NCBI GenBank assembly: GCA_051294375.1
Contig: CM119268.1
Coordinates: forward strand, 10,686,148 to 10,750,147
Direction: 5' to 3'
From: Paraspadella gotoi
Lineage: Eukaryota > Animalia > Chaetognatha
DNA: 64,000 nucleotides
The number at the start of each line of letters is the position of its first letter. The stretch's first letter is position 1. Both the position numbers and the translations under genes were made by a program. Shown piece after piece: positions 12,582 to 48,300 of this stretch. The notes under the pieces are model-generated. The model did not search any database, was not told the origin of the DNA, and saw only the letters and a program-made list of their open reading frames with translations.

Positions 12582-12839
12582 ATGGCAACAGCCGGGTTGC
12601 CTGTGATGCCCATTGGGATGGGGCATCTCACTGTTGGCTTTGGGGGCTTCCGACCCTCAGTGACGCCTCCAGTCACTGGCGCGGTTACCCTAGGACGGTC
12701 TCGCTTTGCCAACGCAGAGGGAAGTCGTGAGGACTGTGGATGGAACACTACGCTTGGGATGGTGTGTTCCCCCTCTGAGCCAATGGATTTGGCTGAAAGA
12801 TGGTGGACGCGAGGCGGTGTGAATATACCGCCACAATAG
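12582..12839 (-). mobile_element. SINE-like dispersed repeat, family A, copy 1 (carries a twister motif)
   Basis: About 255 bp, nearly identical to 22394-22650. On the minus strand it has an A-box-like TGGCTCAGAGG, a B-box-like GTGTTCCATCC, the twister fold, two 3' hairpins (GATGCCCC/GGGCATC and GGCAAC/GTTGCC) and an AT-rich tail. Confidence 0.8.
12633..12713 (-). ncRNA. Twister ribozyme-like motif, circular permutation type P5 (family A)
   Basis: Minus strand reads GTTGGC-AAA-GCGA-GA-CCG-TCCTAGGG-TAA-CCGC-GC-CAGTGAC-TGGAGGC-GTCACTG-AGGG-T-CGG-AA-GC-CCC-CAAA-GCCAAC. Pairings: P5 GTTGGC/GCCAAC, P2 GCG/CGC, T1 CCG/CGG, T2 GC/GC, P3 7 bp, P4 GGG/CCC. The UAA cleavage motif and the GA catalytic motif are intact. 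Confidence 0.8.
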
Positions 12840-14174
12840 CCAATTTTCGCTTTCATGCTCATCGGTTTTTTTTTTTTTTTTTTTTTTCAATCAAAACTAA
12901 TTCGTAATTCAAATCGATACGGAACCAGCGAGCGATTTCACGGGTTCTATTTTTAGCTACGCCGCGTTTTCGCGATTAAAAATGGCGAAATTCCCTCCGC
13001 GCGATTGGCACGTTTTCTCTGTCGTTTCTCTCTCTCCGTCAGGGTTTTGAGTTTGCGCTAATTCGTTTCGACGTGAGTGAAGCTTGGCCTGGAGTTTTTT
13101 TTTTTTTTTTCTTTTTGGGAACAGCTTCGAACTCTCACATGACATTTTCGTGTCACAGTACCTCCTAATTCCTTTTTTATCCTTTGACGTTTTTCCTTTC
13201 CTCCCCCCGCCCAAGAATCCAAGATCGCAATTAATTTTTCGTTTCGAATTTTCGTTCACGTTTTTTTTTCTCTTTTCCCTTTCGTTAACTCACTTCTTTG
13301 CTTTTTTTCCCCCTTTTTCTTATTTTTTTCCTCATTGACTTATTACTTTTTACTTTCCCCGTAGATTTACCCCATTATTTTCTCTTCCCTTTCTTCCTCC
13401 TTTCTTTTCCGTTCAATTTTACCATCTAAGTTTCCCACAATATCTAATCTTCAGTTTCCCCCCTCAAATTTTACATTTCTTCCCTTTTCCCCTTGCCCAC
13501 TCTCCCTCTAATTCCCCCCCCCACTCTTTCTCACCCTCTTTATTTTTCCCCACTCTCATTCCCCCCTCCCCCCTCCGTTCTCATTTTCCCTCCCGTTTCG
13601 CTCTGTCGGTTCTAAATACGAGAAAGGCCTTCGGAATGACTTTTGACCTCCGGCCCCTTGACCTCTTTTTATTTTTACATGCGGGCTTTGAAAAACGACT
13701 AACGGGGAAAGAAAAAAAAAAACCTTTTGTAAGAAAAATATAGGATGGAAAAACTTTTAAGGGATCGTTGCAACAGTCTTTGTAGTTTGTAGGAAACGGA
13801 AATTATTTCCCTGAACGTGAGAAAAAGAGTTTATTATATAAAATAAACGAATTTAACTCTAAACTTTATTATTTGGAGAGAAGGCTTTCACTTTGTGGCG
13901 AATTTTTTTTTAATAAAATGATTGATTTCTAATATCCGCGTACACGGGCCGGAATTTTTTTTATAAAAATTGTTTTCTGCTATGAATTAATTTCTCAGTT
14001 TCGCATCAAATGAAACGAAATTGGAGTAAAAAAAAAATTCGGAAGCTTTTCTTAGGAGAGAAGACGAGTCTCATCTTTTTTCAAAAGATCTCGGGTTCAA
14101 TTCCTGACGACTTCAATTTTTTTTTCGCTTAGGGAAGACTAGGCTATTTTTTCCTATTAGCTCCAGCTATATCC

Positions 14175-14300
14175 TTACAGGCTGAGAACTGCCCCCAAAC
14201 TGGAACGACCTGCGCGACGTAAGGAGATCGAACCAGGTACCCCAACAATGCCTTCCAATCTTACCGATAAATACCCCGCGTCCATGATGAAACCAATATT
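14175..14300 (-). mobile_element. Probable tRNA-derived SINE head fragment
   Basis: The minus strand has TCGGTAAGA followed about 25 nt later by the B-box GGTTCGATCTCC. There is no complete cloverleaf. Confidence 0.35.
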
Positions 14301-14954
14301 GGGCACCTTTTTCCGAGATCGCCCCCCTTTAGTTTCCTTATCCTTAAGCTGAATTTTGAATGAAAGCCGAGAGTAGTCGCCCTTGCGTATTACAAAAAAA
14401 TTGAGGACATATTCTATCGAAAACAACAACAACAACGACGATAACGACAACAACGACGGCGTTCTAAATAAACATTCTCCCCCACATTTTCTCTCTTCGT
14501 TCCGTCGACTTCGACGCTGCTATTTTTTTTCCCTTTCCTCTCTCCAAATGCGGAATCACGTATTTTAGACCAGAAGGGGTGGGGGGGGGGGCAGGGTGGC
14601 GCGGGGGTTTTATGAATGGAGCAGGGGAGGTGGGGGAAGCGCTCGAGTGCGGGATTTTTCAAAGGTCAAATAAGTAGTTGGGTAAAAGATTTTACACTTA
14701 ATTTTTTTTTTACTCGAATAATTTTATGAAAATTATGGAATTTAAAAAAGAAGAAGCATAAAATCGCATTTAATCCAACCGGTCAAAGTTAGTTGACTTA
14801 GTCCAAAACGCCGAGGGAGTCGCTTCGTGGGTGATGAAGCGTGGATCGCTCCGTGGGTTCGAGTCGCTCTGTGGGTAGGAGGCGCTTCGAGGCAAAAGGA
14901 AAACAGGAAACTGCGAGAGAAAGCAGAATTGCTAAAAGGTGGAACTCGAGAGAG

Positions 14955-14985
<31 letters not shown>

Positions 14986-15209
14986 GAGACAGAGAGAGAG
15001 AGAATGGCGCTAAGTGCCACTGGAATAAAAATATATCCGATAAAAAGGTGAAGTAGAAAGAATTTTTTTTTTTGTACGATGCGAACTTAATTTAACGTTA
15101 ATAAATATAATAAATAAATATGAATATAAATTGATATTTGAATAGGAATCGATTCCGACGGGAATCTGTTGTCGAAGAATTCTTTCTTTTAAATTCTTTG
15201 ACTGGTTGC

Positions 15210-15332
<123 letters not shown>

Positions 15333-15496
15333 GATTCAATTCAGAGAGAACAGAAGAGAGCGAAAGAATATTGAAGATGCGACCTCTCTCTCTCTCACTA
15401 AACTGCAAAACTGTCACTCTCTCTCCTCATAATCTCTCCATCGAAAAGGTCGACCCCTCCATCAACAATCTTCCTCCCGCTAAAGGTCGCTCCTTT

Positions 15497-15945
15497 ATCT
15501 CTCTTTCCCTTCTCCCCTTCGCTCGCTCGCTTGCTTTGCTTGCTTGCTTGCTTGCTTGCCTCGCCGGTTGATTGGTTGGGATTTCTTTCTTTTTTTATTT
15601 GTTTCTTCCTGTTTTATTCTTTATGGTCCATACGTATGTAAGATTGCGTGGCGAATCCTAAATTCGACTCCCGTATTGCTTGGTGAAATTCAGCTCGTCC
15701 CATTGGCTTGGACACTGGACAGTGGACAATGGACATATGGACAGCTAAGTACGAGTTCACCAACGGTGAGTTCCGGGTACAATCCCCTCGCGGTCATGCT
15801 GGTTAAAGTGTGATGGTGTCGGCATGAACACGCCAGTGACATGGGGTCGTCACTGGAGGTCCAAAGCCCTGAGCGCCAGCTTTCGGGAAATGCCTCACAC
15901 CCCAGGCATCACACATGTCCCCCCGTTGCCTTTATATGAACATTA
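15497..15945 (+). repeat. Duplicated segment (copy 1) containing (GCTT)n and the family B SINE-like element
   Basis: Colinear similarity to 29729-30675, where the segment is interrupted by a MITE. Confidence 0.85.
15798..15880 (+). ncRNA. Twister ribozyme-like motif, type P5 (family B, copy 1)
   Basis: GCTGGT-TAAA-GTGT-GA-TGG-TGTCGGCAT-GAA-CAC-GC-CAGTGAC-ATGGGGTC-GTCACTG-GAGG-T-CCA-AA-GC-CCT-GAGC-GCCAGC. Pairings: T1 TGG/CCA, P5 GCTGGT/GCCAGC, P3 7 bp, P4 AGG/CCT. A B-box-like GGGTACAATCCC lies just upstream, and the 3' end reads GGCATCACA...GTTGCC as in family A. Confidence 0.7.
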
Positions 15946-17675: not shown

Positions 17676-18682
17676 CTCGGAGAAAGAGGAGAGAGGAAGG
17701 ATTTAGAGAGAAAGACCGTTGGTAAGTCGCCTCAATTCATTTTTAAAATTTTATATATTATATATTATATATTTCAAAATCATAAAAGTATATATATGAA
17801 ATTGGTACAACCAGTATAAAAATTATCCATTCATTTAATAAATAAGCTATCTTGTCCCTGACTCAATATAAAATTATAAAATATACGTAACAAAATATCA
17901 TTATGGGTCTTCATTTTTGTTTCTTTAAAATTTTAGATGCTTCACTTTACCCTACAGCGTTTGGGCCATTTTATAAGTCACTTTTCGATGGGTCGATCTG
18001 TCGGTCGGTATGTCTGTCCGTAGGTCTGTCCCACTTACGTTAAAATTACATATAGATTAGATTAGATTTATTCAGAAAGACGGGCCGATGAAGGCCTTGG
18101 GTCGCGGTTACAAATGATCTCGGAACAGTGAACAATTAATCACAATTAATCATCATAAATCACTGTTTCGTAAGTTGTACGGCTAAAGATTGAATCGGAA
18201 GTTAATCGTTTAATTCGCCTATACTATAGTTGGTTGCTCAATGCTCAATGCTCAATGCTCATTTGTGAAGACAGGAAAAAACCGCCTTGAGGAAATCCTA
18301 AAACTGTAAGGAAGAAAAGACGTAATTTCGATGCAGTGCATGTCATAAATTACAAGGGCAAAACTTTTTTTAAGTCATGTCATGTCATGTCATATCATGT
18401 GAATGTCGGGAAGAAACTTTCGTGAAGAACAAAGGGAAATAAACGTGAAAATAAAGTCACTTCGGCGCAACACATTGGAACCACCGTTCTTGTTATGCTT
18501 CAAAAATCATTATCGAAAAGAGTGATTAAAATTTAAATGATTAATAAAATTCATCCCACTTTTTTTACAATGAAATTAGTTTGATATTCAATGTTCTGAC
18601 ATCTAATATTATGTTATCTTTAAAGTTTAAACGCCCGACTACCTATTCTAGTTTTAGACGAAAAATTAAATAAAGTTGGTAA

Positions 18683-25333
<6,651 letters not shown>

Positions 25334-25370: not shown

Positions 25371-28300
25371 CAGAGATGCAGACGCGATCCGGGAGGCGGA
25401 GTGGAAACGCGCGGAGGGGCGCATGTTTTTTGATGTTTTTGAGGTGGCGAACTTGGACAAGAGTCAAAAATTGGGGAGAAGGGAGGCGAATGCGGAGGCG
25501 CAAAAAACGTTGCGCGTTCGCCTTTTGTGCTTTTGTTTTTATCGGCGAAAATCAAAAGGTTTTTGCCAAATTAAAACCTTTCTATTGTTCCAAAAATTGT
25601 TCTTTTTTTTTAAATTTAGATATTGCTAAATTCTGAAGCGTTTATCAGCTGCCATTGGTTTTTTATTAACATATTTTTTATTCAAAAAAAATTTGGTTCT
25701 GTTTATATCTATTTTATCTAATAAGTTGTACATAAGCATATATTTTATATCTTTTTCTTTTAATGCATTCATTCACTCATTATTTTTCTTTTTATTTTAA
25801 ATAAAAGATAATTTGTTAATTTATTCCTATGAATATTTAATTAAATTTGTTAATTTATTCCAATGAATATTTAATTAAATTTGTTAATTTATTCCTATGA
25901 ATATTTAATTAAATCATTTATTTATAATTCTATTCTATTTATTTATTTACTTTATTGATTTTATTAATCAAATAATTTTTTTATCTAGCATCGTTTTTTA
26001 AACTTGGATCTTTTTTGATTTGCATTATTATTTTAACTGGCATCATTTTTTCAACTGGCATAATTTTTTTAAATATGGATTATTTTTTTATTTATATTAT
26101 TTTACAACTTGAATCATATTTTTAATTTGCATTATTTTTTTAACCTATATAATTTTTTAAATTCCATTATTTTTTTAATTTTGTATTTTTCCAACTTGCA
26201 TCATGTTTTTATCTTGGATCATTTTTTTAACTTGCATTATTTTTTTAAACTAGCTTCATTTTTAAACTTGTATATTTTTTTTTGATTTGCATTAATTTTT
26301 TAACTTGCATCATTTTTTAATTCATTTATTGTTTTTAATTTGCATTATTTTTGAAACTTGCATCATTTTTTTTAACTTCCATTAGGTTCCGCGTATAAAC
26401 GTTGCATTTAGGAAAAAAACGACTCTTTCCACTATTGTTCAGTTGTTACTTAAAATGTTAATTAACCTTGTACCACAACACAAATTAGGCCGAACGAAGG
26501 ATTGGTTAGAAACATCTCCACCCGTTTCTATGATAAAATAGTACCATTTTGGCAACTTTTAGCCTTGAATGCCAAGGAAAGTTGAGAAAAATTTTTTACT
26601 TTGGAAATCCGTTCTTTCTTATCTTTTTACCTCTGGGTAAATTTATTAGCTTATATCATTTATAGTTTGCCTATGAATTAATTTTAAAGTTAACAAGTCA
26701 AAAAGTTGGAGTTTCAGTCTTTATCATAATTTGTTAAACAAAATAAATCAAATTGGTTGAAATTAACAGAAAATATAGCCTATTGAATAAGCTTTTAACA
26801 CCTATAAAATTATCAAAAAAACTTTTTTGGTTAAGCCACAAATAATTTTTAAAGACGTCTTTTAATTTGTGACTTTTTGTGACTTGCATTTTTTTTTGAT
26901 AAAGAGAATATTTTCAACTCATTTATTAGTTTTAAAATATGAGGTACATACTGACCTTGATTAATTAAAAAAAACCGCATCCTTTTAACCCAATGGAAGC
27001 GTCAGGACTTGTTTTTTCTCAGAATCGACAGATTTTGCGGAAAAATTTTTGCAAAATCTGTCGATTTACTAAATTTGCTAGGCACACACAAATTGAAAAA
27101 AAAATCATGCGCTACCGTTCATTTTCTTTTTATAATGCATTTTAAATATTTTGTTTGATTTGGCTCAATGTAGACGTAGTGAGAGGAAATAGGAAAGGCA
27201 AAAAGAAAAGGAGAAGGGGAGAGAATGAAAGAGGGGGTAAAATGCAAAAAACGAAGGCAAATGGGGAAAAAATAGTGAAACAATTGTAAGGTAAGAAAAG
27301 AGGGGAAAATGGAAAGAAAAAGAGGGAAAAAAGGGAAAGAATGAAGATGAGAAAAAAAGGTGAGGAAAGTGCATGAGTGACAGAAAAAGGTAGGGCCAAA
27401 AAATGGTAAGTGACTGCGTGAGAAGTAAGGGAGGAAAGAGGAAGAGAATAATATAAAGTAAGAGAAGAAAAGAATCAGGAAAAGCGTATGAAGGAAAAAA
27501 ATTGTATCAGATAATTTGGCGTCTTACCTAAAATCTTTTGTGTAAGTAAAAGACATGAGGATTCTTATAAGAATTCGATCTTTAAAAATCATCTGTACCA
27601 TAAAAATTCAATCATACTTTTTTAAATAATAAGCAGTTAATGAGATTAGATTGACAATCATTGAAGAAATCATGTCTTACCGTATTTTTAACTCATAGAA
27701 ATTTACATGGGAAGTTCTAAGTGATAAGGAGATAACTTGAGACTACCGTTTTTTTTAAATGAAGAAAGCTTCGTACTAACCAATGAGATCAAGAAATATG
27801 GTAATTATTTGTAGTTCAGATTTCGTTGTTTAAAAGACACTGATTGTATGCGAAACCTTTTTTTTTTATTTATAATATTTTTTTGATTTACATATTTTTT
27901 GATTTGCATTATTTTTTAACTTACATCATTTTTGCACCTTATATCATTTTTTTATTTTAAATCATTTTTTATATTTCGCATCATTTTTTGAATGCATAAT
28001 TTTTTTGAATGCATAATTTTTTAACCTATATCATTTTTCAACTTGCATCATTTTTTTTCAAATTGCAGCATTTTTTTAAACTTGCCTTATTTTCTTAACT
28101 TATATTATTTTTTAACTTGTATTATTTTTTTCTTTTTTGTAATTTTTTAAATTTATATATACCTTTTAACTTATATGGTTTTAATTTTTATGTTAAAATT
28201 TAAATTTCAATTTATTTATAAAAACAATTCATAAAATTGGTACAAACAATATAACAATTATCCATTTGTTATTAGTTTGTAAAATATTTAATTAATTATA

Positions 28301-29304: not shown

Positions 29305-29917
29305 ATATAGTTAAAACTCAAAACCGCTAAAATCCGCTACGGACCGTATAAGCCAAAACCTAATACTAACTAATAAATACTTTTGTCAATTTTTAAATAT
29401 GATAAACCTGAGTAAACGAGTAACTGCAAGAAAAAATTCAATTTCAGGAAGGGTAGTTATTTTTCTTATATAATTTGAATCCATTTCATAATTTAGTACC
29501 TCATTGGAAAATCTGTTTCTCTCTTAATTTTAAGAATCGCTATTTATCGCATTAACTGAGGATCAAGGAAACCTTTCTTGACCTATTGAAACCCTTGGAT
29601 ATTGTCAGTTGTGATAAACCTGGGTAAACGAGTGACCTATAGTTAAAAAGTCGTTTTTGTCAATTTTTTAAAAGAAAAATATGTTGGCTATGTTAAGGAA
29701 AAATTATATTACTATGTAAAAACAAAAGATCTCTCTTTCCCTTCTCCCCTTCGCTCGCTTGCTTTGCTTGCTTGCTTGCTTGCTTGCCTCATCGGTTGAT
29801 TGGTTGGGATTTCTTTTTTTTTTCTTCATTTCTTTCTGTTTTATTCTTTATGGTCCAAACGTATGTAAGATTGTGTGGCTAATCCTAAAACTCAGCTCGT
29901 CCCATTGGCTTGGACAG

Positions 29918-30461
29918 TAAAGCGTAGTAAAAATTTTAAATTTAACTTTAATTAAAATTCTAAAAGTGAGGAACGAATAACATTATACTAATGAACATTT
30001 ATGTATAAAAAAATTAATAATAATATAAAATAATAATTAATATAATATAAAATTACAATTTACGCAGTAGGCCTTATACTAGTACCAATCCAATAAATGT
30101 TGAAATTTCAAAATAATTTTTTGTAAGATTTTTTTGCTGATTTGGATTCGTCATGAAAAGTTGATATAAAGAAATATAACTCTTTTTTAAAAATTCTTTC
30201 ATTAGGTTGATCAAATATAAAAAAACCTATATTTTAAGCTGAAAATTAAAATTTTATATATTAAATATAGTTTTTTAAATTCTTAACCACTTAATAAAAT
30301 AATTTTTTAAAGATTTTATAAGGATAGTACTATATATAAATATAGCCTACTGCGAAAATTGAAGAACATAATTTTTTTTTTTTACAAATTAATGTTAACT
30401 GATGGTATGTTGTTCATAATTGACATTTAGAATTTTCGTATGTAACTTTCACTACGCTCTA
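29918..30461. mobile_element. hAT-type MITE with long imperfect TIRs
   Basis: 8-bp TSD TTGGACAG at 29910-29917 and 30462-30469. Ends TAAAGCGTAGT...ACTACGCTCTA, with inner inverted motifs CGCAGTAGGC/GCCTACTGCG. Absent from the paralogous copy near 15710. Confidence 0.85.
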
Positions 30462-30476
30462 TTGGACAGCTGTCAC

Positions 30477-30559
30477 GCTGGTTAAAGTGTGATGGTGTCG
30501 GCATTAACCCGCCAGTGACATGGGGTGGTCACTGGAGGTCCAAAGCCCTGAGCGCCAGC
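30477..30559 (+). ncRNA. Twister ribozyme-like motif, type P5 (family B, copy 2)
   Basis: As 15798-15880 but with TAA-CCC at the cleavage site/P2, which weakens P2. The element ends GTTGCCATAATAATA. Confidence 0.65.
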
Positions 30560-30925
30560 TGTCGGGAAATGCCTGACACCCCAGGCATCACACATGTCCC
30601 CCCGTTGCCATAATAATATATTTAACTTGTAGATGGGGAGGGAAAAACTTTTTATTTCTTTATATGAACAATTGAAGTAGATAATGACTATTATTGTAGC
30701 CTGGCCTATTGATAATCTAATTTCCAATTTCTTTGCTTTTCGTACTTTCATTCGATTTAAAACAAACCCAGACATCGCGGCAAATTGTCGCCCCATTCAT
30801 GTTTTCGATTAAACTCTCCCGCCATTCCGCTTCTCTTGACTTTGAGTCATCATCTATTCTTATCCCACATTCTGATCGGGCTACTTTCGATTCTTGAGGC
30901 TTGACACAATCACGCGTTTCGATTT

Positions 30926-31371: not shown

Positions 31372-34189
31372 ATGGCTTATCTTATACGAACCAAGACTGC
31401 GAGAGAAGGGCGACAGCCACCGTCTGAAAGGTTTGAGAGAGAGTGACTGTTTCCCAAGTAATCATATACACTATACACTAGACCTTGCCATATATGAAAA
31501 GTTTTGAAATCAAAAAACGAGTATTGTGTAAAAGGTGCCCATACATCATATGAATTTTTTGAACATTTTTTTTCAAAAATAAATTTACAGTAAATGCTGC
31601 CAACTTTGAAAAAAATGAAAAAAAATGGTAAAAAATAGACTTTTTGCTAAATATCTTTAAAAACTTTAATGCAAGAGGAACGAAACCCAAACTATCTTGT
31701 AGAGCGGAAAAAAATGACGTTATGTTACATTACCTTGCATTACAAATTTAACGTGAATTTTTTACTAAGTAAAATTTTTTAAAAACCTATGTTTTGGGCA
31801 ATTTTTGATAAAACATTTTTTAAAAATGATACTTTTAACAAAAGTTTGTGAAATATTTTGTAAAGAAAATTATGGCGAATTGAATAAAGAAATAATTGCC
31901 TTTGTTTTGCTGAACAGAATTTTTAAAAAAGCGATTATCGCGGTTAACAAAAGTTATAATTTTTTTAAATTTAAAAAAATCACTTTCCTTAATTAATTTA
32001 TTTTTTATTTAATAGCGTTTGAACTAGGGCTAAAGGGAAAAAGGGAATGCACTTTCTCAGCAAGTAAAAAAACAATAGTAAATTTCCTGATTTGACAATG
32101 GGAAATTTAATAATTTGTGCTCACCCAGCTCATTAAAGTTTTTTTTAAATTTTTATCATTTTATAATGGAATTATGACTTTTATAATAAGGTAGCTTTTT
32201 TTAATTTTTTTTCTATATAAAATATAAAAGAAAAATTGACAAAGCGACTTAAATGATTTAAAAATTGATAAAATGAGACAAAAAGAGTGAAATTAATGAA
32301 AGTTAAATAACTGAGAAAAGAGCAGTTGCTTGGCTGTTCTGCCGGTACGAGAAAAAAAGAGCCTATAGCTGCCAAAGAAAAAAAAACTAGTATATTCTAT
32401 CTTTTTTTATCTATTCATGATTTTATAGTTAATAATCTAAGTCTATTGTAAATAGTTGATTTAGTTTTTTGACATAAAATATAATTTTTAATTCATCTTT
32501 GATTTTTATTCATTTCATATCTTTTATAGTTGATGAAGTTTAATCAAACAAGTTGAATCTATTCTTAAATTAATCAAGCAAGCTTAATATTTTTTCAAAG
32601 TCTTTTACACACCTTTGATTAAGCCAATTATATTTAAACACAAATTATAATTCAACTCAGTTTTGGAGAAGCTAGCTTGACCAAAGGTAATTTCATGAAA
32701 AAATAGAAATAACTAGTTTTTCTTTCTTTGGCACTCTATGATGCATGGACCTTTTTTTTCTCGCATCCGGTAAGCAGCAAGCAACTTTCTCCTCAGTTTG
32801 CTTAAGTTTCATTAATTTTACTCTCTTTTTTCTCATTTTATCCAACTTTTTAATCATTTTAATCGCTTTTGTCAATTTTTCTTTTCTCTTTTTATAGAAA
32901 AAAAATTAAAAAAACTACCTTATTTAAAAGACATAATTCTATTATAAAATGATAAAAAATTAAAAAAAACTTTAATGACCTGGTGAGACAAAATATAAAA
33001 GTTACCCATTGTCAAATCAGAATTTACTATTTTTTTATTTACTCTGAGAAAAGTGCATTCCCTTTTTCCCTTTAGCCTAGTTCAAACCTATTAAATAAAA
33101 AATTAATTATTAAGGAAAGTGATTTTTTAAATTTAAAAAAAATTTATAACTTTTTAACCGATAATCCTTTTTTTAAAAATCTCTTTCAGCAAAACAAAGG
33201 CAATTATTTCAATTATTCAATTCGCCATAATTTTTTTTACAAAATATTTTCAAACATTGTTTAAACAATATCATTTTTTTAAAAATTTATTCAAAAATTG
33301 CCCAAAACAAATAGGTTTTTTTAAAAAAATTTTACTTAGCTAAAAAATTCACTTAATTTAATGCAAGGTATGTAACACAGTCAATTTTTTTCCGCTCTAC
33401 AAGATAGTTGTGGGTTCTGTCGTTCCTCTAGCAATAAAGTTTTTAAAGATATTTAGCAAAAGTCCATTTTTTTACCATTTTTTTTCATTTTTTTCAAAGT
33501 TGGCAGCATTTTACTGTAAATTTAATTTTTTGAAAAAAAATGTTCAAAAAACTCATATGATGTTATGGGCACCCTTTTACACAATACTCCGTTTTTTGAT
33601 TTCAAAACTTTTCATATATGGCAAGGTCTACTATACACAGTATACAGTATGCAGGCGAAGATTTGCTTTACGTAAACCCTGCTCAATTTCAAATTTATTT
33701 TCTCGTCCACTCTCCTTCCTCAGCATAATGGACGAAATCGGGCGCCACCGCCTCCGTGGCCTCGACTTTTACCACGTCAAGCAAATCGCCGGCGAAGACA
33801 CTGGCCTCTTCGAAACTATGAAGTTCGAGAGCAACAGATTTGCGAGCTTCTACGACTGGCCCTTGAAGGTTTAAATTTAAAAGACTTACATTAAAAGCTG
33901 AAAAAGAACATTATTTAGTTTTAAAGGCATGTGGTGGTGACAGAGAGATACAGGGTAAATATCGGTCCATCCCATTTTCTACATTTTCTACATAACAACG
34001 TAAGCTGCTCAGGCGCTACGAAAGAAAGAGGCACCAGAATATTGTTTTTGAAGTTTATATTAAAAAAAAAAATCTTAAAAGCATAAGGATCAAGCCATGA
34101 TGATAGTCATTCATTGATGCGATGATAGTCATTCAATCATCGTAAATAAAACAAACAAATGCGTTATGAGTGAAAGAGAGAGAGAGAGA

Positions 34190-35856: not shown

Positions 35857-35901
<45 letters not shown>

Positions 35902-35979: not shown

Positions 35980-36020
<41 letters not shown>

Positions 36021-36376: not shown

Positions 36377-36424
<48 letters not shown>

Positions 36425-38641
36425 AGAGAGAACGGAGGGAGACGGAGGGAGAGAGAGAGAGAGAGAGCCTGACTCGTTTTTTTTAAACGATTCAGAAAGG
36501 CCGCGCCTGATCAAATATATATGTTTTTTAGAAAGAAAAAAATAATCAGAATTTTTCAAAAAAACGAACGATCACGCAAGAGATCGCACACAAAGAGACA
36601 GACAGAGAAGAAACTCGTTTTTAAACGATTCAGAAAAGGCAGCGCCTAAAAAAAAATATATAAATTAAAAAATAAATAAAAGAAAGGCAAAAAATGTTAC
36701 AATGGTTTACAATTGGAAACTTTTCAATTTTTTCCAATCGCAGCTTGTAAAAGATTTTTATTTTTATTTGTATTAAAATTAAGATATAGCTTCTCATTAA
36801 AATCCTTTGAGTTCCCATTTTATTAGAATTTTAAAAAAAATTTTTGAATTTCATCTTCAATATTATATACTGCAATATGTAAATTAGCTTAAAGCATTTC
36901 TATATACTAATTTGGATATTATAATCAGTACTATAATCTCATTTGCATATTGCAGTAAATCATAATGAAGTGGAAATTCAAACAAAAAATACTTAAATCC
37001 AAATGTAATGAGAAAATATCAAAGCTATTTTAAATTGAGAAGCCATATCTAAATTTTAACTTACTATGATTGCACACTTTTGTAAAACTCTATCATAATT
37101 TATAAATAATTTTTATTAAAAAAAAAACGGTAAGTCACAGCCAAACCTATAAAAGCGTAGTACTTTTTATAGTAAAAAACAGCGTGACGGCCGACGACGA
37201 CGACGACGACGTCACAAAGAAGCTCACCCGAATCAATATCAAGCCTGAACCGGCTTCGCCGGTCATGGCTGTGATAATAATATTCGTGATAAAAGTTTTA
37301 CGTCTGGAGGTGAATTGGAGTAAAACGAAAACTTTTACAAAAACGTAACGAAAAGAGAGAAATTACACAAGCTGAATTGTTTATTCTACAGAGTGGCACT
37401 CAAATCAAAACAACGACAACAATGAGGTTTAGTGTCATTTTAATTCGCTTCTTATTATTTATGATCAATGAAACTCTTCTTTCTTTTCCAAGGATGTCGA
37501 CGTTTACCCAATAAAACTGGCCAAGGCGGGATTCTATTTCTCCGGCGAAGGAAAAACAACGACCTGTTTTGTCTGCGAAGGAACCGTTCATGATTGGTCA
37601 AAATGGGACGACCCGCATATGGTTCACAAGCAGAGGTTCCCGCTCTGCGACTTTCTCAAGGGAAAAATCAAGGGCGTCCCAGCAAGAATGGACGAGCAAC
37701 TGCTGCGCCATCGCGAGGATTCCTCGAGAATCTTGAGCGAGCTGGAGAAGCTCGACGAGCAAACGACCCAAACGACAGAGTACTTGGCCTCCATACCGAA
37801 CATGACGGACGAGCAGCTTGGCATCCTCAACTCCACTCCATTTGAAGACGTGAATAAAAGGCTCGCGTCTTTCTCGACGAGCTGGCGGGATGCTGGCGAT
37901 GCTCCCGGTCCTGCAGGCGCCGCCTGCTGCGCCTATTCATGGCCCGGCGACGACGCACCCTCTGCTGAGGGACTCAGCGCCGCTGGGTTTTTTTGCGTTG
38001 GTCCCTTGGATTCGGTTCGATGTTTCCGCTGCGGGATCGTCGTCAGCAATTGGAAGAAGGATGAGGAGCCTTGGATTCGTCATGCCATGTATGCACAGTT
38101 GTATTGCACAGTTGTATTGCACACAATGCATTAGGCAATCTCAAGTCTTCACGAATGTTTTAAATAAACACCGCTTCTATCTTTATTTAAAACATTTTTT
38201 ATTCTTTCTTTAGATGTTACAAATCGCAGAAAAAATGTTGAAAGGCCCAAGAGAAAAGTTTTCAAGCTAATGCAAGAAAAAAAATCCGTCTGAACAAAAC
38301 GGTTTTTTTTTAATACGTATCAATTACTGACAAAAATTTGAGAGACTTTTTAATTTTTTGGGTTTTAAAATTAAAAACTTGTTTTCAGGATGTCTCCCGC
38401 CTGCCAATTCATCAAAAATTACAAGGGCGAAGGCTTCGTCCAGGAAGTCCTCGATGGCCGCATCACTGGAGGACTGGTCGCCCCCGTCGATCCTCGACGG
38501 CCGAACCTTCCTTTGCTGCCGTCGCTGGCTCCCGATCCCGACGTCGGACGAAAACTCCGTCGAAACGACGCAGGAGAAGCTAACGCGCAGCAGCCGACTA
38601 CGTGGGCGTGTCTTTATTCGAAATCGCCGAAATCTATCTAA
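31372..38641 (+). CDS. Inhibitor-of-apoptosis (BIR-domain) protein, paralogue A: two BIR domains, no RING
   Basis: Exons 31372-31430, 33724-33868, 37493-38088 and 38389-38641 (phases 2,0,2). BIR1: MKFESNRFASFYDWP..KLAKAGFYF..CFVC-x16-H-x6-C. BIR2: RLASF..WP..LSAAGFF..CFRC-x16-H-x6-C. Confidence 0.9.
31479..33630. mobile_element. Foldback-like non-autonomous DNA transposon (hAT-type TSD) in IAP-A intron 1
   Basis: Inverted arms of about 940 bp (31479-~32420 and ~32693-33630) start with TAGACCTTGCCATATATGAAAAG and flank a spacer of about 270 bp. Exact 8-bp TSD CTATACAC at 31471-31478 and 33631-33638. Confidence 0.92.
34090..36660 (+). repeat. Compound higher-order repeat in IAP-A intron 2
   Basis: A ~22-bp unit GATGATARTCATTCATTGATGC (34095-34545), three copies of AAAATCTCRGATGTAAATTTGGKATTTTGTA (about 34727, 35459, 36236), recurring (GA)n tracts and GAGCCGGAACTCGTTT units. 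Confidence 0.8.
36770..37060. mobile_element. MITE-like imperfect palindrome
   Basis: Inverted pairs TAAAATTAAGATATAGCTTCTCA/TGAGAAGCCATATCTAAATTTTA and TACTGCAATATG/CATATTGCAGTA. The TSD was not resolved. Confidence 0.55.
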
Positions 38642-39399
38642 ACTCGCGCGAGTGATCAGCTTTTTTATGGTTATCACCGGCTCACTGGGCTGAGAGTAGA
38701 CTGATGTTGTTGTAGTAGTTTTAATTTTTTTTAATTAGAGCTCTAATATGCTTTTTAAATTGCATTATTATTTTATTATTTTATTTTATTGTTTTATTAT
38801 TTATTATCTATGTAGTTAAACCCATTTAGTGTGCAGTTTATTTTACTTATGATTGTTATATAGTATTTCATTTTATTATTGGTTGTGTTGTGGCAAGAAT
38901 CGACAATGATTTTATTCTCCAACAACAAATACAAAAATCAACAAGTTGTGGCGACGAAGGTTTCGTCACCACGGGGTCAACCCGAGTTGGCCACTATGTT
39001 TAGCCATTGCGAGGGAAGCAGGTTACTGACACACACTCTCTCTCTCTCTCGCTACTTGATCACTGCCTCGCTCTCTCTGTTTAGTCTCATATCATGTTCC
39101 TTGAACGTCTCTCTGTTCCTATTATTTAACTTGCCGATAAATATGTATTATGTGCCTCTACAAAGTGAAAATGCTAAGTGTAAAACGGTAAACAATAACT
39201 TTACAAGCAGCCGGCTGAGGTCAGCAGGGAGAGAGTCACTGATGACCGTGGTGACCGGTCTGCGATTGAATGAGAGAGAGAGAGAGAGTTCTTGATCTGA
39301 TAAGGTCGCGTGTTGTGGTTGCCTCTAATTTACTAATTTACAACAAAGTGGACGATATTATTTCTTTGTACCAATAAAGTTTATAAAGAATTATAAAGC

Positions 39400-39640
39400 T
39401 TACAGTGTAGAGGCTGGTTTTACAGGGCGCCACACCCGCAGCGGTGTCACCTCGTGGCGACAGCGAGACAGCATGTTCATGTAGTCCAGAGCTTTGGATC
39501 TGGCAGTAGGCCCATGCCTACAGGCGGGTTACCCGGTCCATCCCACTTTTTACATGACAACCTCAGGGCTCGAACCAGGGACGCACTGAGGCGCTGCGAA
39601 AGAAACAGCTTTAATCCATCTGTAGTGATAGGACCACCAG
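39400..39640 (-). mobile_element. tRNA-headed SINE-like element, family D (carries a twister motif)
   Basis: On the minus strand the canonical B-box GGTTCGAGCCC (about 39566-39576) precedes the twister fold. It is followed by 3' hairpins (ACACC...GGTGT) and GGCGCCCTGTAAAAC. The element is GC-rich within AT-rich intergenic DNA. Confidence 0.65.
39478..39556 (-). ncRNA. Twister ribozyme-like motif, type P5 (family D)
   Basis: Minus strand reads CATGTA-AAAA-GTGG-GA-TGG-ACCGGG-TAA-CCC-GC-CTGTAGGC-ATGG-GCCTACTG-CCAGA-T-CCA-AA-GC-TCTGG-AC-TACATG. Pairings: P5 CATGTA/TACATG, T1 TGG/CCA, P3 GTAGGC/GCCTAC, P4 CCAGA/TCTGG. Confidence 0.8.
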
Positions 39641-40194
39641 AACAGCTTATATGAGAAAAAAAAGATTTATTTCATCTGCGATACGGTTTCATGATTTTAA
39701 CTACCCAATAGTCAAGCATACACCTCATTAACAAAAATTAAATCCTTCAAAGTTCACATTGTAAACTTACATATTTTTATAGTAAGAAACTGAAAACAAT
39801 TAATCTCTTTTTGTTATATAATTTTTTTTTTTACAAAATGGGCATCTGTTAACTTATGAGCCGTTTTTATGTTTTTCATTGGATATCAATAATGAAAATA
39901 TATTAAGTATTTTATAATGTACTTCTTTATTATCTTTAGAAAGGTCATTGACATAGAATGGAATTGAAATACTCCTGAAAATTCAAATAAAAAAAGCTTT
40001 TTTTTTGTTCAATTCTTATCTCAAACGCAACAAAAATATTTGTCCAAAACATTGTCCTCAAAAATTAAAAAAGATGTTTCTATAAAATTTCTAATGAAAA
40101 TGAGCGTCAGAGATAGGACTGACAATTTGTTGAGACTCTAAAGATAAAGAATATATAGAAGTCAAAGCGTCAATTCGAGGGATTAAAAAATTTT

Positions 40195-41704: not shown

Positions 41705-44232
41705 ATGTCGGAGGGGGAAACGGAAAGGTAAAGCTATAGGGCGATGGACGGACATATCCAGAGCTGGCCTACGGAGAAGGGACGACCTTGTCTACTCTTT
41801 CGGAGCGAGGAAAATCAATCAATCAATCAACCAAACTTTCAATTTTCTTCTTCTCCGTGACAGATTGGAGGAGGTGCTCGGTCTTCAACTCTCGCCACAC
41901 GACGTAATCCTATTGACGGACAGAGGAGTTGGGGTCAACGAAAGGATGAAATACGAAGGGAACAGGCTCGGCAGTTACCTTAATTGGCCTGTTCAGGTTA
42001 TATTTATACAACAAAATGTTGCCTAAAATTATTTTTATAAGTTATCATTGCTTGAAGTTAAACATTTGTTTTTGATGACTAGATTTGCTTATAATGAAAT
42101 AGTGTAAATCTTCACTATCTCCACCCGCCTGATTATACCAGCGCAACCTTGGTGGCGAATAAGCGAGCTTTCCCCCTTACCGCTAAGCACCTTAGGGTTC
42201 GCGCCCTCCTGGTGTCAATGCCGGACGGGACAGTTCTTATTGCATAGTTCTTAGTCGAGAAACCTTTAAGAATAACTGAAATGAACAAGATCTCAAGTCC
42301 TTGGCTGTATTTCTTTTAAGTACACCATTATGGTTACGGCGGTTCCGTCCTGATATGTATCGCTTCATAGCGCACGAAAGGAAAATCGACATATTTCTTT
42401 CTTTACAGTGTCCGGTGAGCCCATTATTACTGGTCAAGGCTGGTTTTTACTTCTCGGGGGAAGGAACTACGACGACCTGTTTCGCATGCGAAGGATCATT
42501 CTCTGATTGGACGAGCGGCGACGACCCTCAACTCGTTCACCGTCAGAAGTTCCCCCACTGCCCATTCGTGACCGGAAAAATGCCCGACATTTCGCTTACG
42601 TGGACCAGAAGCTACTTAAGCCGAAACCCTCTGACCCTCTTGATCTGGTTCAAACTTGTTGAATTGATCAATCTCTCAGCCGAGTCGAGGAGGCACTTGG
42701 CCGACCTCCCGCGCATGACGAACGAGCGGCTTGGCGTGAAGAGTTCCACCCCTTTCGAAGAGAGGGAGGAAAGGCTGAGGACGTATGGTTATTCATGGCC
42801 GCGTCACAGCGCTCCTTCTCCCGAGAAGGTAAGTGACGCCGGCTTCTTTTATCTCGGCTACTTGGATTTCGTTAAATGCTTCAGTTGCGGCGTGGTCGTT
42901 AGCAATTGGACGGAGGATGAAGATCCTTTGACCAGACATGAAAGGTAATTAGAAATACCGGTAGTTTAAAAAAAAAATACTTTTTTAAGATAAAATTATA
43001 GGATTAATAAATTGTTAAGTGTCATCGCATGCACTGAGTAGTTTGAATTAAAAAAAACATTGATTTGGGATAGTGCTGAGTATTATTTTTATTTACACCA
43101 AGCATTCATTTGGCTGGTTCATCTTTCAAGGCCAGATAAATTATGGTGAGCTTAAAAAATTATTTACAAGTAAGAGAAGGTAAGAGAAAGAGGAGATTCT
43201 CTCACTTGTAAATACTTTTTTAACCTCACCTTGAAAAATTAACCAGTCAAATGATTTGAATTCATAGTCTAAATAAAAATAATACTCAGCACTGTATCCC
43301 AAATCGATGTTTTTATAATGTTATATTAAAAAATAAATATTCGATATCCAAATGAAAATGAATTCATTAAGGTTTATTACTACAATAGATTGAAAAATTC
43401 AATCTCATTGAAGATCATATTAAATAATCAACTCTTCCAAAACATTTTTTTTCCTATTTTTACAAATGCAAATAGATGAGAGCTTTTTCTATATTTGGGT
43501 CTTTTTTTGCATTCGAGGTTGTCTCCAACCTGCCAATTCGTTTGCAGCCGCGGAGAGGAACGAAATGATGAAAGCGATGCCATAGGCGATCACGCGGACG
43601 AGGAAGATCGTTCGTACTCCGCTCTTGACAATCTTCTTCGTAGTTTGAGTGGTGCTTCTGGGGAATTTCAGGAATTCCGATCGAACACCTCAGTCGGTTT
43701 TACCACCGGAAGTCGTCGTGAAAGCGAAAATAATTTTACTCTTAGCAATTTTACTCGTTTCTCAGAGTCTGTATCAAGTATTGATACTAATACTAGCGGT
43801 TATCATTCTGCTTGGAATCAGAGTGGTGCCTCTATCGGTAATACCACTGATGGCGATGTTGAGTGGGAAAGCGATAATAATTTAACGCTTAACAGAGATG
43901 AACGTTGGTTATCCGCGTCAAGTATCGATACCAATTGCGTTGCGATCGATAAGAAAAATGATGTCACTGTAAATTCTAAGAAAGGACCCGCCCCAGATGC
44001 TTCCTCTAATACCGCCCTCGCCCCTGCTGACGTTGAGGAACTCCCGCCTGTCCGTAACGTCGTATTTTCTTCGGGCGATGCCGACGATGGAGATGTTCAG
44101 AGTTTCTCAGTCAACTGCGTTCACCACTTTAAATCCCGCAGCCTTCCAGTGGATCTGTTGCCGAATCCGGTCACGAGGGACCGTGGATTTGACAACCGTA
44201 GAAAGAAATTGCGGAGGTTGAATTCTTTTTAG
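41705..44232 (+). CDS. Inhibitor-of-apoptosis (BIR-domain) protein, paralogue B: two BIR domains, long Ser/acidic tail, no RING
   Basis: Exons 41705-41727, 41864-41996, 42409-42944 and 43518-44232 (phases 2,0,2, same positions as paralogue A). BIR1: MKYEGNRLGSYLNWP..LVKAGFYF..CFAC-x16-H-x6-C. BIR2: RLRTYGYSWP..DAGFFY..CFSC-x16-H-x6-C. Confidence 0.92.
43052..43314. mobile_element. MITE-like imperfect palindrome in IAP-B intron 3
   Basis: AAACATTGATTTGGGATAGTGCTGAGTATTATTTTTATTTA is mirrored by TAAATAAAAATAATACTCAGCACTGTATCCCAAATCGATGTTT, with an inner ATTTACAAGT/ACTTGTAAAT pair. Confidence 0.7.
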
Positions 44233-44430: not shown

Positions 44431-45345
44431 TTTTTTAGTCGGATCTGCTTACAGCAGATCCCGACTTTGTCGGTCCGTCGGACCGCCCCCTAAATTTTGT
44501 CGGACACTCACTTATATCATGTCAGAAAATCGAATTATGACAAATTATGCAAAAAAAATGATGTCCGTCCGTCCATTCATCCATCCGTCTGTGTGCCTGT
44601 TTGTCTGTCAGTTGGTGTGTTTGTCTGTCCGTTTGTCCGTCCGTCCGTCTGTCCGTCCGACCAACCTTAGCAAAAAACTCCAATTACTCGTGATTGGATG
44701 GATGGATTGGGATGAATTTTTGTGTGTGGGTAGGGAAGTGTGTGATTGAGCTGGATATGAAGTTTCGATGGAAGCGTGTGAGTGGAAATGTGTTTAAAAT
44801 TAAATGGAAAAAACAACAAAATCTATTTCCCTATTTGAAAGTCAATTACTCATGAGTGGATTGGGCAATTGTCTTGAAATTTTTTATGTGGGTAGGAAAG
44901 TGTGTGATTAAGCCGGATGGAATCGTCTGAGAGGAAATGAGTTAATATGGAAAAAATAAAAAACCTGTTTCACTAATTGATTATGCTTATTTTTTTTATA
45001 TTAAATGTAAATGTAAGAGTTAATCAGTTAATTAATCAATTAGTTAATTAATTAATCAGTCAATTAATCATTCAATCATTCAATAAATCAATTAATTTGT
45101 CTATTAATTAATAGATAGATAAATTTATTTATCAATTAATTAATTATTTAATCAATCAATCAATCAATCAAGTCAATCGTTATCGGCTTTATTGTCGTCG
45201 TCGCCATCATCGTCGTAGCTTTTGTCGTGGTGAGTGACGAAGATACCTCGAAACAAACATTGAAAATAACTTGAATTAATTAAAAAAAATATTAATTACC
45301 GCTAATGATCGTGGGCAGATGCGACATTGTTTGCTCAAACTTGTT
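44431..45345 (+). mobile_element. DINE-1/HINE-like (Helentron-associated) non-autonomous element
   Basis: Begins in a T-run. It has a 5' subTIR GTCGGATCTGC with a nearby inverted copy GCAGATCCCGAC, a (GTCY)n microsatellite, a duplicated CAATTACTC..GGA core, a 3' subTIR GCAGATGCGAC and a terminal stem GTTTG/CAAAC followed by TTGTT. Related fragments occur near 17930-18050 and 47300-47420. Confidence 0.65.
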
Positions 45346-48300
45346 AGAATTAAAAGTACATATATCATTATAATTACTTGAATCTGATTAGAATGATCAC
45401 AATATTAATTTTAAATTGTTAAACTGAACTGAAAAAGAGACTAGATCTTTGGGGTTGTAATGATAATTTTATGCTCAAGTACTATTTTTTCGAAGAAAAA
45501 AATATTATCCTAATAAAAAAAACAACAACAATAAAACAAAAACTTGTATTAATGTATTTTATATTTAAATTATCAGCATTTATAAAAAAATTAGAAGAAA
45601 ATATTAAATTTATTCTCAAAAAAAAAAATATTAACAAAAAAATTAAATTAAAAATTAACAGAAAAATCGCAAAAACTTTTTATTTGTTTACAAACAACGA
45701 TTTATTTTAAAACTTGAAAAAATACGGACAATGTTTCGGCTCATGTTTCGGGCGGTTGGTCGAGGTGCCGGGCTCCCGACTTCACACCGAGATTGAGATC
45801 AATAGCTAAGACAATAAAAGGTGTTGGCACAGAGGACGTTCTCTTCATCTGAGGTTAGCGTTTGCTCTGTGCTGCCCGAAATTTCATCATCCGAAATGTG
45901 GTAGAGTTCGTCTCGAGCTTGTCGACGTCTATCCTCTGCGACCATCTTGAAAAAAAAATATTTAATAAAACAAATAAATTGATATTTCGAAATAAAGGTG
46001 TCCCGAAAAAAAAAAATAAATAAAAACGAGTATTTTTTTAGGAAAATTCCACGTTCACAAAAAAGTTGAAGAAAAACGTCATGCAATGAAATTTATACTA
46101 ATTTTTTAAATTTTCTGACCTATTTTGAAGGTGAGCATGCGCTTGTTAGTACGCATCGTTGTTTAACGTCTTCTTGGAAATTGTAAAAAAAATTTAAAAC
46201 TATATCCATTATCCAGTTATTTATCCACACCTGCGATTCGTGCGTGAATCGCCGGCGACATCGCTATTAGAATGAACTACAACTTAAGCTTCAGGATGTC
46301 TTTTTGCCAAGGTGTGAGTGTATCTTTGGGTTCATCGTTCATCACTTTGGACCACTTAGTTCAGTCAATTTATTGATATTTTAAGATTATTTATGATAAT
46401 TGATGACTTGTTTCTTCGTCGTCAGTATTTGAATATATTATAATTATATACATTTTTTTAGATTGTTAATTGTGAAGAGTTATTGTTCACATTTCTTGCG
46501 GTGATAAAACAACCATCTTTTTACAAAAATCGAATTTTTAATAGGACTTTAAACACTGATGTTGACTATTAAATCCTAAACCTCGGTGGGATTTACTCTA
46601 TGTTTATGTTTATTCTGAGTTTAATTTTTAATTTTCTTCTTTTAAATTATCTGATTTTAAGATTTGAAAATTTTTAGATTTTATCCCATACTTCTACTTC
46701 CTAGTTAAAATTAGTTCTTCATTTCACCAGTCATATAGAAACTGTATTGATTTCTAATTTTTTTTATACTCTGGAGCAGGCGCATAAACCCCCAACGCAG
46801 GTTGCAAGGCCTGGACTGAATAGAGTCAATGTTTTTTACAGTGGCACGTTTGGCAATGTGCAAGGTCAAGTATTTCGTAACTAAGGAAAATTATTCTATA
46901 TTATTCAATCAAAAATCATGAACATAGTAACGAGAGAATTAGCAATTAAGATCTATTTTCATTACGTCCCATCTTTGATCTGTTTTCCCTTTTCAGTGTA
47001 TGTACCGTAAATTCGCTTAAGCTTTTGCGGTTTAACTCAAACTCTTTTGCAATATACGTAATTATATATTAATATATTTTGCCTTCATGTATTTTTTTGT
47101 TTTTTATATTTTTTTGAATTAATGGTTATGATCGAATTGCTTGCGCTTTTGTGTTGGGAGAAAGAATAATCTTTTTTTTTTATCTTTGAAATTCTAGCTT
47201 TCAAGGTGATTAGTAAAGTTACTTTCGCTTTTGCTCTCTCGCCTCAGATTTGTTTTAGTATGGAAATGTTTTTGAATCGTTTTAAGTTATCATGTGTTAT
47301 GTTTTTATTTACGCCGCGAGTACTTGCTGAGCAACTCTGTAATACACTTAGGTGTCGGTCGGTCGGTCGGTAAGTCTGTCTATCCATCCATTGGTCTATC
47401 CCACTTACATTAAAAATGCTTAAATTAATAATACTTCATCAATTTAGTTCATATATTGTCGGAAGGTAAGGTACCATAAAAGACCTTTAACGTGCACATG
47501 TATCATATCATCAACCACGTGATCAGCTTAAAAATGATCATTTGACCCAAAATTTAATGCGGAATAATTCAGGAGTCATTTTTGTTAATAGTTGTCAGAC
47601 TAAAGAATCAGTAAATAATTATTAGAATGTATTTCCTACTTATGTAGTCATATGATCATACAGAACTACAGTCACGTGATCATAAAGTAAACCTATTACT
47701 AAAAGCAGAATATTTCAAGTAATATTAGGTTGATTTAGTTAAAACCTTACAGATCAACCATCGAACCTATATTATATATAGATTTTATAGTAATATAGTT
47801 ATGTAATTACCCTAAAATACTCATAATAAGATAGTTACTGTGGTGCAACACATTAGAATTACCGTTCTTGTTTATCTTTTAACAAGTTATGTGGTCGTCA
47901 TACATGCAAAATAACAATGCTGATTTGATATACTTGCTATATTGATATGCATTTTCAAAAAAAAAAAAAAAATGGTGATTGTGCTTATATGAAATCTTAA
48001 ATATATTGGTGTTTGATAAACCGATCAGAAAAAGTTATTGGATGTTTTTAAAATTATATTCTTGTAAAAACTCCTTGACATTTATTTGTATTAATAAATT
48101 TTCAATGATGATGCGACAAAAAGTAAATATAGTAGTATAAGCAAATAAAGAGATTTTAGATAGTTGTAAGACCCTTTTTGGCTCTTTAAATTTGGATCTT
48201 TCATGGATTGAAAAAATTGAAATGTTTTCTCTATATTGGTGGCGTAAATTGGATTTTGCGCCATGAAGAAGTGAAATGAGTAGACGAGATGGCGTCTCCG

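What the first reader, a model, noticed from the sequence alone, without database searches (positions are those of the whole stretch)
12582..46826. Four divergent SINE-like families each carry a type-P5 (circularly permuted) twister ribozyme with covarying pseudoknot
Seen in the sequence: six copies (12633-12713 -, 22445-22525 -, 15798-15880 +, 30477-30559 +, 19250-19325 +, 39478-39556 -) from four families that differ in primary sequence. All share one layout: P5a, A-rich linker, P2b, GA, NNN, short P1, (U/G)AA, P2a, GC, P3 hairpin, P4a, U-N'N'N'-AA-GC, P4b, P5b. The T1 triplets covary (CCG/CGG, TGG/CCA, CGG/TCG, TGG/CCA), and P3, P4 and P5 differ in sequence yet still pair. Established knowledge: this matches the twister core (U-A cleavage site, L4 loop U-NNN-AA-GC, T1/T2 pseudoknots, GA carrying the general-base G), and closing at P5 is a known permutation. 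Inference: each family has a Pol III B-box-like motif just 5' of the ribozyme, and families A, B and D have hairpins and a tail 3' of it. These would be tRNA-headed SINEs whose conserved central domain is a self-cleaving RNA that could cut off the tRNA head. Six copies in 64 kb suggests a high genomic copy number. I do not know of a described SINE superfamily defined by a central type-P5 twister domain, but I cannot check the literature.
Basis: partly seen in the sequence, partly recalled or inferred. Interest (0 to 1): 0.93.

Follow-up and report, generated by a model that had tools for sequence, protein, structure and literature searches.

The report
Twister ribozymes inside animal LTR-like repeats
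Four short repeat families in an animal genome each carry a rearranged copy of the twister RNA fold, predicted to cut itself, and the one family I could examine across the genome has the ends of a retrotransposon long terminal repeat rather than of a tRNA-headed SINE, so it is likely an animal counterpart of the plant ribozyme-bearing jumping elements called retrozymes.

Summary
Six copies in four families have the type-P5 twister layout, with both pseudoknots paired in 6 of 6 and compensatory changes. Rfam's P5 model misses them all. One copy lacks the catalytic G; families B-D have a bulged P2.

The SINE reading is weak. No tRNA head is detectable, and only family D has a clean B-box. Family A, the only one seen in bulk, is a 255-bp repeat with hundreds of flanks, two sharp ends (TG...TA, 5 of 6 inverted), a fixed 4-bp target duplication and common variants that avoid the ribozyme core. 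One contig shows a primer-site-like flank and one flank consensus is purine-tract-like. Copies keep the uncut ribozyme.

Best reading (0.5): solo LTRs of a retrozyme-like element that uses twister instead of hammerhead. Against it: no paired LTRs seen, no terminal CA, and B1 and D have 6-7 bp flanking repeats more like non-LTR insertion. Cleavage is untested. The scan had already noted variant P5 twisters in repeats of other genomes (e1-9983527, e1-7276099).

The parts
12581..12835 (-). Family A copy A1, whole 255-bp element; starts TG, ends TA, 6-bp terminal inverted repeat with one mismatch
   Evidence: Loose-end clusters at 12577-81 and 12835-8 in three runs; 94.5% to A2 over 255 bp
12633..12713 (-). 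A1 type-P5 twister fold, canonical spacing, all core letters present; predicted cut just 5' of 12686
12836..12839 (-). 5' copy of the 4-bp target duplication of A1 (3' copy 12577-12580)
12581..12632 (-). 3' domain of A (two hairpins), homologous to the 3' domain of B; no common variants
   Evidence: 0 of 300 shuffles reach the A/B score; 0 of 52 positions vary
22393..22647 (-). Family A copy A2; twister 22445-22525 with A in place of the general-base G at 22512; flanks match at 3 of 4
15497..15930 (+). Family B copy B1, about 435 bp, with a 150-nt pyrimidine-rich and microsatellite 5' extension; flanked by a 7-bp direct repeat (15492-15498, 15929-15935)
15798..15880 (+). B1 type-P5 twister fold, 3-nt P2 5' strand; predicted cut just 5' of 15827
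29729..30612 (+). Family B copy B2, split by a foldback insertion at 29915-30464 and lacking the T-arm-like segment of B1
30477..30559 (+). B2 type-P5 twister fold; predicted cut just 5' of 30506
19177..19325 (+). Family C copy: 5' hairpin, stem with T-arm-like hairpin (19228-19237), twister 19250-19325, predicted cut just 5' of 19275; both ends uncertain
39403..39643 (-). Family D copy between 6-bp direct repeats (39644-39649, 39397-39402); perfect B-box 39567-39576; twister 39478-39556, predicted cut just 5' of 39530
33962..34030 (-). Decayed family D fragment; keeps the 5' part up to T1 and has lost the rest of the twister core
   Evidence: nhmmer E 0.006; alignment

Best explanation
These repeats carry a type-P5 twister fold predicted to self-cleave, and family A, probably with its relatives, is likely the solo long terminal repeat of a retrozyme-like LTR element. 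Shown: the fold, its covariation between families, the ends of family A, and that common variants in A avoid the core. Inferred: a full element with two LTRs is transcribed; the twister in each LTR cuts and releases a unit-length RNA without a poly(A) signal; a host ligase closes it into a circle, which rebuilds the ribozyme across the joint; a Gypsy-type reverse transcriptase copies it from a tRNA primer and its integrase inserts it with a 4-bp duplication; solo LTRs arise by recombination or directly from the circle. This explains why a ribozyme that cuts in mid-element is both conserved and inherited whole.
For: Family A in runs X1 and X2: 7,996 and 11,641 contig records laid, 936 and 1,040 of them only partly; the listed loose ends cluster at 12577-81 (213 and 225 contigs) and 12835-8 (136 and 152). 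The three listed 5' flank groups read A at -4 and T at -3, and the main 3' group starts AT, which fits a fixed 4-bp duplication in a roughly symmetric A+T-rich target; A1 has an exact 4-bp duplication, A2 3 of 4. The one X9 contig continues past the 3' end with TGG after two letters (primer-site-like; about 4% by chance). The 5' flank consensus of 16 X10 contigs shows an A run and four G (purine-tract-like). Of 19 variable positions, 15 lie in the 5' 122 nt, 4 in the 81-nt ribozyme and 0 in the 3' 52 nt (Fisher p 0.007 for ribozyme plus tail against the 5' part; 0.09 for ribozyme alone); all 4 lie in loops or improve a pair (p about 0.003). No depth step and no listed loose end at the cut site. 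A and B share the 3' 50 nt, C and D the 5' stem (0 of 300 shuffles each); A, C and D start with TGT. Plant retrozymes have 300-400 bp LTRs, 4-bp duplications, PBS, PPT and solo LTRs (PMC4918200, passages). Natural twisters tolerate P1, P2 and P4 imperfections, and about 94% cleave (PMC11662667, type P1 only; abstract, passages, sections 31 and 35).
Against: No paired-LTR element was seen; no genome is held. The end is CA followed by TA, not CA, and there is no AATAAA; both are conserved in animal Gypsy LTRs (PMC3601003, passages). The primer-site evidence is one contig from another organism code, matched to no tRNA. The purine-tract evidence is a plurality consensus with 0.47 agreement that the DNA runs do not show. 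Two 3' groups (29-40 contigs each) could be tail variants, and 651 loose-end rows were not shown. B1/B2 share 150 nt upstream of their internal TG with no purine tract, their 3' flanks are unrelated (73 of 500 shuffles), and B1 has a 7-bp and D a 6-bp flanking repeat, which suits target-primed insertion. D has a perfect B-box. Bulk data exist for A only, and X1 and X2 are one study that may be the assembly's source. In whole-element folds the P5 helix falls from 0.53-0.99 to 0.00-0.22 (pseudoknots ignored).
Confidence: 0.5

Rival explanations
1. SINE-like non-LTR elements with a decayed Pol III or tRNA-derived head and a central twister. Uncut RNA is copied by a LINE enzyme; the ribozyme is slow, switched off, or used to trim transcripts.
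For: Perfect B-box in D (0 of 1000 shuffles) and A-box-like motif in A (5-9 of 1000). T-arm-like hairpins end 9-11 nt before P5 in B1, C and D. 6-7 bp flanking repeats in D and B1. Short, interspersed, mostly full length. Hammerhead-bearing Pol III SINEs are known in Schistosoma (PMC6765202, passages).
Against: No tRNA by ARAGORN or Rfam; relaxed hits are near chance. No family has both boxes by my patterns. B2 lacks the segment, and a joint that skips 12729-12783 (both box-like motifs of A) has about eight times the depth of the other listed joints. A has a fixed 4-bp flank pattern and no clear tail. An active ribozyme would truncate a SINE (PMC5786205, passages), yet the core is the conserved part.
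Confidence: 0.27
2. Non-LTR elements that move through a circular or multimeric RNA (non-LTR retrozyme-like), or non-autonomous derivatives of RTE LINEs whose 5' twister was permuted.
For: The P3-L4 part resembles the twister-P1 model and the Schistosoma sequences in PMC8501958 Table 1. Twisters head RTE elements. The whole A element folds stably (z -3.6).
Against: No tandem copies in the window and no head-to-tail joint among the 15 of 86 joints shown. Copies do not start at the cut site as RTE copies do. RTE tails seen in the Kojima 2018 supplement passages do not resemble the A/B tail (ten search terms only).
Confidence: 0.13
3. The fold is kept for structure (protein binding, RNA stability) or is a recent relic and does not cut.
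For: No Rfam P5 score; bulged P2 and almost no P1 in B-D, where the canonical register would put U or G at the general-acid position; competing folds in context; A2 has lost the general base.
Against: Catalytic letters are kept across four diverged families and in family A in bulk; P1 and P2 flaws are tolerated in tested twisters.
Confidence: 0.1

Closest known systems
Twister ribozyme, type P5 (permutation named in PMC10085705 and PMC6765202, passages; Rfam accession RF02684 taken)
   Same: Strand order, T1 and T2 pseudoknots, L4 loop, GA and N^AA core
   Different: No hit to the Rfam P5 model; bulged P2 in B-D; sits in multi-copy animal repeats. The large test of natural twisters covered type P1 only.
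Plant LTR retrozymes (Cervera et al. 2016, PMC4918200, passages)
   Same: Ribozyme inside a 250-440 bp repeat, 4-bp duplication (family A), solo copies, hints of PBS and PPT
   Different: Twister P5 rather than type III hammerhead; animal host; paired LTRs and circular RNA not seen here
T-variant twisters at the 5' end of Perere-3, an RTE LINE (Liu et al. 2021, PMC8501958; parts 1 and 3 of 9 and passages)
   Same: Twister in an animal retroelement; similar P3-L4 sequence; weak P1
   Different: There type P1 at the 5' end with copies starting at the cut; here type P5 in mid-element with copies keeping both sides
Metazoan non-LTR retrozymes (PMC7761336 and bioRxiv 10.64898/2026.07.22.740005, passages) and Schistosoma hammerhead SINEs (PMC6765202, passages)
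   Same: Short non-coding animal repeats with a self-cleaving motif
   Different: Those are tandem, carry type I hammerheads and lack LTR features; these are dispersed singles with twister

Membership tests
Twister ribozyme, type P5 | Strand order opened at P5 with a closing P5 helix | tested here: met
   6 of 6, 6-7 bp
Twister ribozyme, type P5 | T1 and T2 pseudoknots and the L4 loop | tested here: met
   6 of 6; T1 has two pairs with double changes
Twister ribozyme, type P5 | General-base G | tested here: met
   5 of 6; A2 has A. No common variant at this site in family A
Twister ribozyme, type P5 | General-acid A at +1 followed by A and a 4-bp P2 | tested here: inconclusive
   Canonical spacing in A1 and A2; in B-D only if P2 carries a bulge
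Twister ribozyme, type P5 | Score above Rfam's cut-off for the twister-P5 model | tested here: not met
   No P5 hit at E<=10
Twister ribozyme, type P5 | Site-specific self-cleavage | not testable with these tools
   Needs an in vitro assay or RNA end mapping
tRNA-derived SINE | tRNA-like 5' head with spaced A and B boxes | tested here: not met
   None in A or C; near chance in B1; D has a B-box only and a weak cloverleaf, 12 of 500 shuffles. Box patterns were recalled, not from a call.
tRNA-derived SINE | 3' A-rich or tandem tail and variable-length target duplication | tested here: inconclusive
   A: fixed 4-bp pattern, no clear tail; B1 7 bp, D 6 bp, single copies
tRNA-derived SINE | Pol III transcription | not testable with these tools
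   No suitable RNA data
LTR retrozyme or Gypsy-type solo LTR | 4-bp target duplication | tested here: met
   Family A only
LTR retrozyme or Gypsy-type solo LTR | TG...CA short inverted termini | tested here: inconclusive
   TG start and 5 of 6 inverted, but the end is TA, two letters after a CA
LTR retrozyme or Gypsy-type solo LTR | Two LTRs around an internal region with PBS and PPT | tested here: inconclusive
   None in the window; one PBS-like contig and one PPT-like consensus; no genome
LTR retrozyme or Gypsy-type solo LTR | AATAAA signal of animal Gypsy LTRs | tested here: not met
   Absent in 5 of 5 elements checked
LTR retrozyme (as defined in plants) | Type III hammerhead in the LTR | tested here: not met
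   Twister instead; no hammerhead hit
LTR retrozyme (as defined in plants) | Accumulating circular RNA | not testable with these tools
   Only contigs of guessed RNA runs were available
RTE 5' twister (Perere-3 type) | Ribozyme at the 5' end, copies starting at the cut | tested here: not met
   Family A starts 149 nt upstream of the predicted cut; no depth step there
Non-LTR retrozyme | Tandem units with a type I hammerhead | tested here: not met
   Single dispersed copies, twister

The most novel reading that the evidence does not exclude
An animal superfamily of LTR-type retrozymes that uses a circularly permuted twister in place of the hammerhead, replicates through a circular RNA, lets the ribozyme replace the poly(A) signal, and is invisible to Rfam because it carries a variant P5 fold.
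Probability: 0.35. Interest if true: 0.82.

Novelty: new variant of a known kind. Interest (0 to 1): 0.62.

Why it matters
Twister ribozymes have one described genomic job in the papers I could read: trimming the 5' end of RTE LINEs (type P1). A type-P5 twister conserved in the middle of abundant animal repeats needs another job, because cutting there splits the element. If these are LTRs, it extends LTR retrozymes from plants to animals and from hammerhead to twister, showing that the ribozyme class is interchangeable. If they are SINEs, it directly tests the idea that SINEs cannot carry active ribozymes. Either way the variant escapes Rfam, so eukaryotic P5 twisters are likely under-counted. 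Nine paper searches listed no paper on P5 twisters in animal LTRs or SINEs; the library lacks most subscription papers, the original twister paper with its lists, and Repbase and Dfam.

Tried and rejected
Rfam at gathering score: nothing. Degenerate pattern scans for relatives: 1 and 1 hits in viral contigs, 17 in metagenome contigs, 4 in prokaryote genomes; all 23 lacked a convincing P3, P4 and P5 on inspection and were rejected as chance. No whole genome is held. No RNA holder is listed for family A; X9 and X10 are only guessed to be RNA, and X10's uneven depth was not used. A1 and A2 as the two LTRs of one element: rejected, because the outer flanks do not match and each has its own duplication. 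B1 and B2 as a local duplication: rejected, because the 3' flanks are unrelated. Two loose P1-type descriptor hits at one site near 2548 are within chance (28 of 200 shuffles give one). Weak matches to C at 25636 and 23072-23092 (E 0.008, 0.34) were not counted as copies. Bulk ends for families B, C and D were not obtained, so their ends rest on one or two copies each. Look-ups of earlier findings by sequence and place were empty.
Full report
Observation. The six stretches exist as stated and parse into the type-P5 twister order. A loose descriptor recovers 5 of 6 against a shuffle mean of 0.085 (maximum 1 in 200). T1 reads CCG/CGG in A, TGG/CCA in B and D, and CGG/TCG in C; T2, L4, P4 and P5 pair in all six. 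For ten named pairs 60 of 60 cells pair and four pairs change on both sides (six sequences of four families, so supportive rather than a formal test). A profile of the six finds no further copy, and nothing at the right end of the stated range matches. Rfam reports nothing at gathering score and never the P5 model; only partial P1 matches of 13-23 bits appear.

Likely activity. A1 has canonical spacing and every core letter. A2 has A at the general-base position, a change that lowered mean cleavage from 0.76 to 0.54 among tested natural twisters (PMC11662667). B, C and D have a 3-nt 5' strand in P2; with one bulged base on the other strand they keep N^AA, while in the canonical register they would lack the general acid. 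The same paper reports tolerance of P1, P2 and P4 flaws, for type P1 only. Whole-element folds disfavour P5, which could mean an off state or no activity. Cleavage is untested.

Host and abundance. The window is from an animal (ephrin and BIR exons). Family A is held by runs of two organism codes and two biofilm metagenomes. Laying four runs on 12480-12960 gave 7,996, 11,641, 1 and 455 records, with cover essentially confined to 12575-12840. Summed depth is no copy number, but 936 and 1,040 partly matching records imply at least hundreds of insertions.

Selection on the fold. Of 19 positions with variants at 3% or more, 15 lie in the 5' 122 nt, 4 in the ribozyme and none in the 3' 52 nt; the four fall in the P1 loop, the P3 loop (two) and a mismatch that they turn into a pair. 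A1 and A2 differ at 13 sites in the 5' part and one in the remaining 133 nt. I chose the set of free positions after seeing the structure, and some variants are private to A1.

Ends of family A. Listed loose ends cluster at both termini, giving a 255-bp element that starts TG and ends TA with a 6-bp inverted repeat (one mismatch). The three listed 5' flank groups fit A-T-purine-pyrimidine and the main 3' group begins ATAT, with roughly symmetric A+T-rich sequence beyond; A1 has an exact 4-bp duplication. That pattern is expected of an integrase (established knowledge). One contig in X9 continues with TGG two letters after the end, and the 5' flank consensus of 16 contigs in X10 is purine-rich; both are thin. 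There is no sign of copies starting at the cut, unlike Perere-3, although 651 loose-end rows were not shown. The end lacks a terminal CA and there is no AATAAA.

Other families. A and B share their last 50 nt, C and D share a stem with a T-arm-like hairpin, and all four have a similar 5' hairpin (by eye), so they look like one lineage. But B extends 150 nt further 5', B1 lies between 7-bp direct repeats, D between 6-bp repeats (a 6-mer near unknown ends can be chance), and B2 is split by a foldback element and has lost the T-arm-like segment. No bulk data were obtained for B-D, so the class of these three is open.

The SINE claim. Only D has a perfect B-box; A has an internal A-box-like motif; no element has both by my patterns, and cloverleaf scores are near chance. 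Kojima 2018 argues that an active ribozyme behind a SINE head would truncate the element (part 2 of 5, passages and supplement passages read). Here the ribozyme is the conserved part and is inherited whole, which an element with two ribozyme-bearing repeats and a circular intermediate explains directly (PMC4918200).

Verdict. Real type-P5 twister-like RNAs in abundant animal repeats. Most likely solo LTRs of a retrozyme-like element (0.5), then SINE-like elements (0.27), other non-LTR routes (0.13) and a non-cutting fold (0.1); the families need not all be one class. It works like a plant LTR retrozyme but fails that family's hammerhead test and has not been seen with paired LTRs. Papers seen: PMC8501958 (parts 1 and 3, passages), PMC11662667 (abstract, sections 31 and 35, passages), PMC5786205 (part 2, passages, supplement passages), and passages only of PMC4918200, PMC7761336, PMC6765202, PMC10085705, PMC3601003 and bioRxiv 10.64898/2026.07.22.740005. 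The original twister paper was not held; its supplementary lists and those of PMC11662667 and PMC8501958, which I did not open, may include eukaryotic P5 examples. The scan's own earlier notes describe variant P5 twisters in repeats of other genomes and hammerheads in solo LTRs of an animal and a fungus; these are unchecked leads.

Noticed in passing
window 29915-30464: A+T-rich foldback element of about 550 bp with terminal and internal inverted repeats (inner arms 72% alike), inserted into B2; likely a MITE.
   Followed up: partly
window 37472-38134 and 42280-42948 (+): Two related exons with paired BIR domains (inhibitor-of-apoptosis proteins), about 70% alike in DNA.
   Followed up: partly
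window 23629-24216 (-): Fragment of a reverse transcriptase (Pfam RVT_1, E 8e-5, below cut-off), non-LTR-like by eye, 1 kb from A2 and not joined to it.
   Followed up: partly
window 61756-62142 (-): Ephrin exon with a glycine-rich insertion.
   Followed up: partly
window 31592-33511: Nested inverted repeats (92 nt at 92%, 108 nt at 75%, 97 nt at 72%): a foldback element of about 1.9 kb.
   Followed up: no
window 25925-26372 and 27855-28203: Two arrays of a degenerate 17-18 bp T-rich minisatellite.
   Followed up: no
window 12171-12245 and 17789-17863: A 75-bp repeat, 93% alike, unrelated to the twister families.
   Followed up: no
   Followed up: partly
window 12728-12784 (table 5): A joint that skips 55 bp of family A has about eight times the depth of the other listed joints, suggesting a deleted subfamily that still multiplied.
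   Followed up: no
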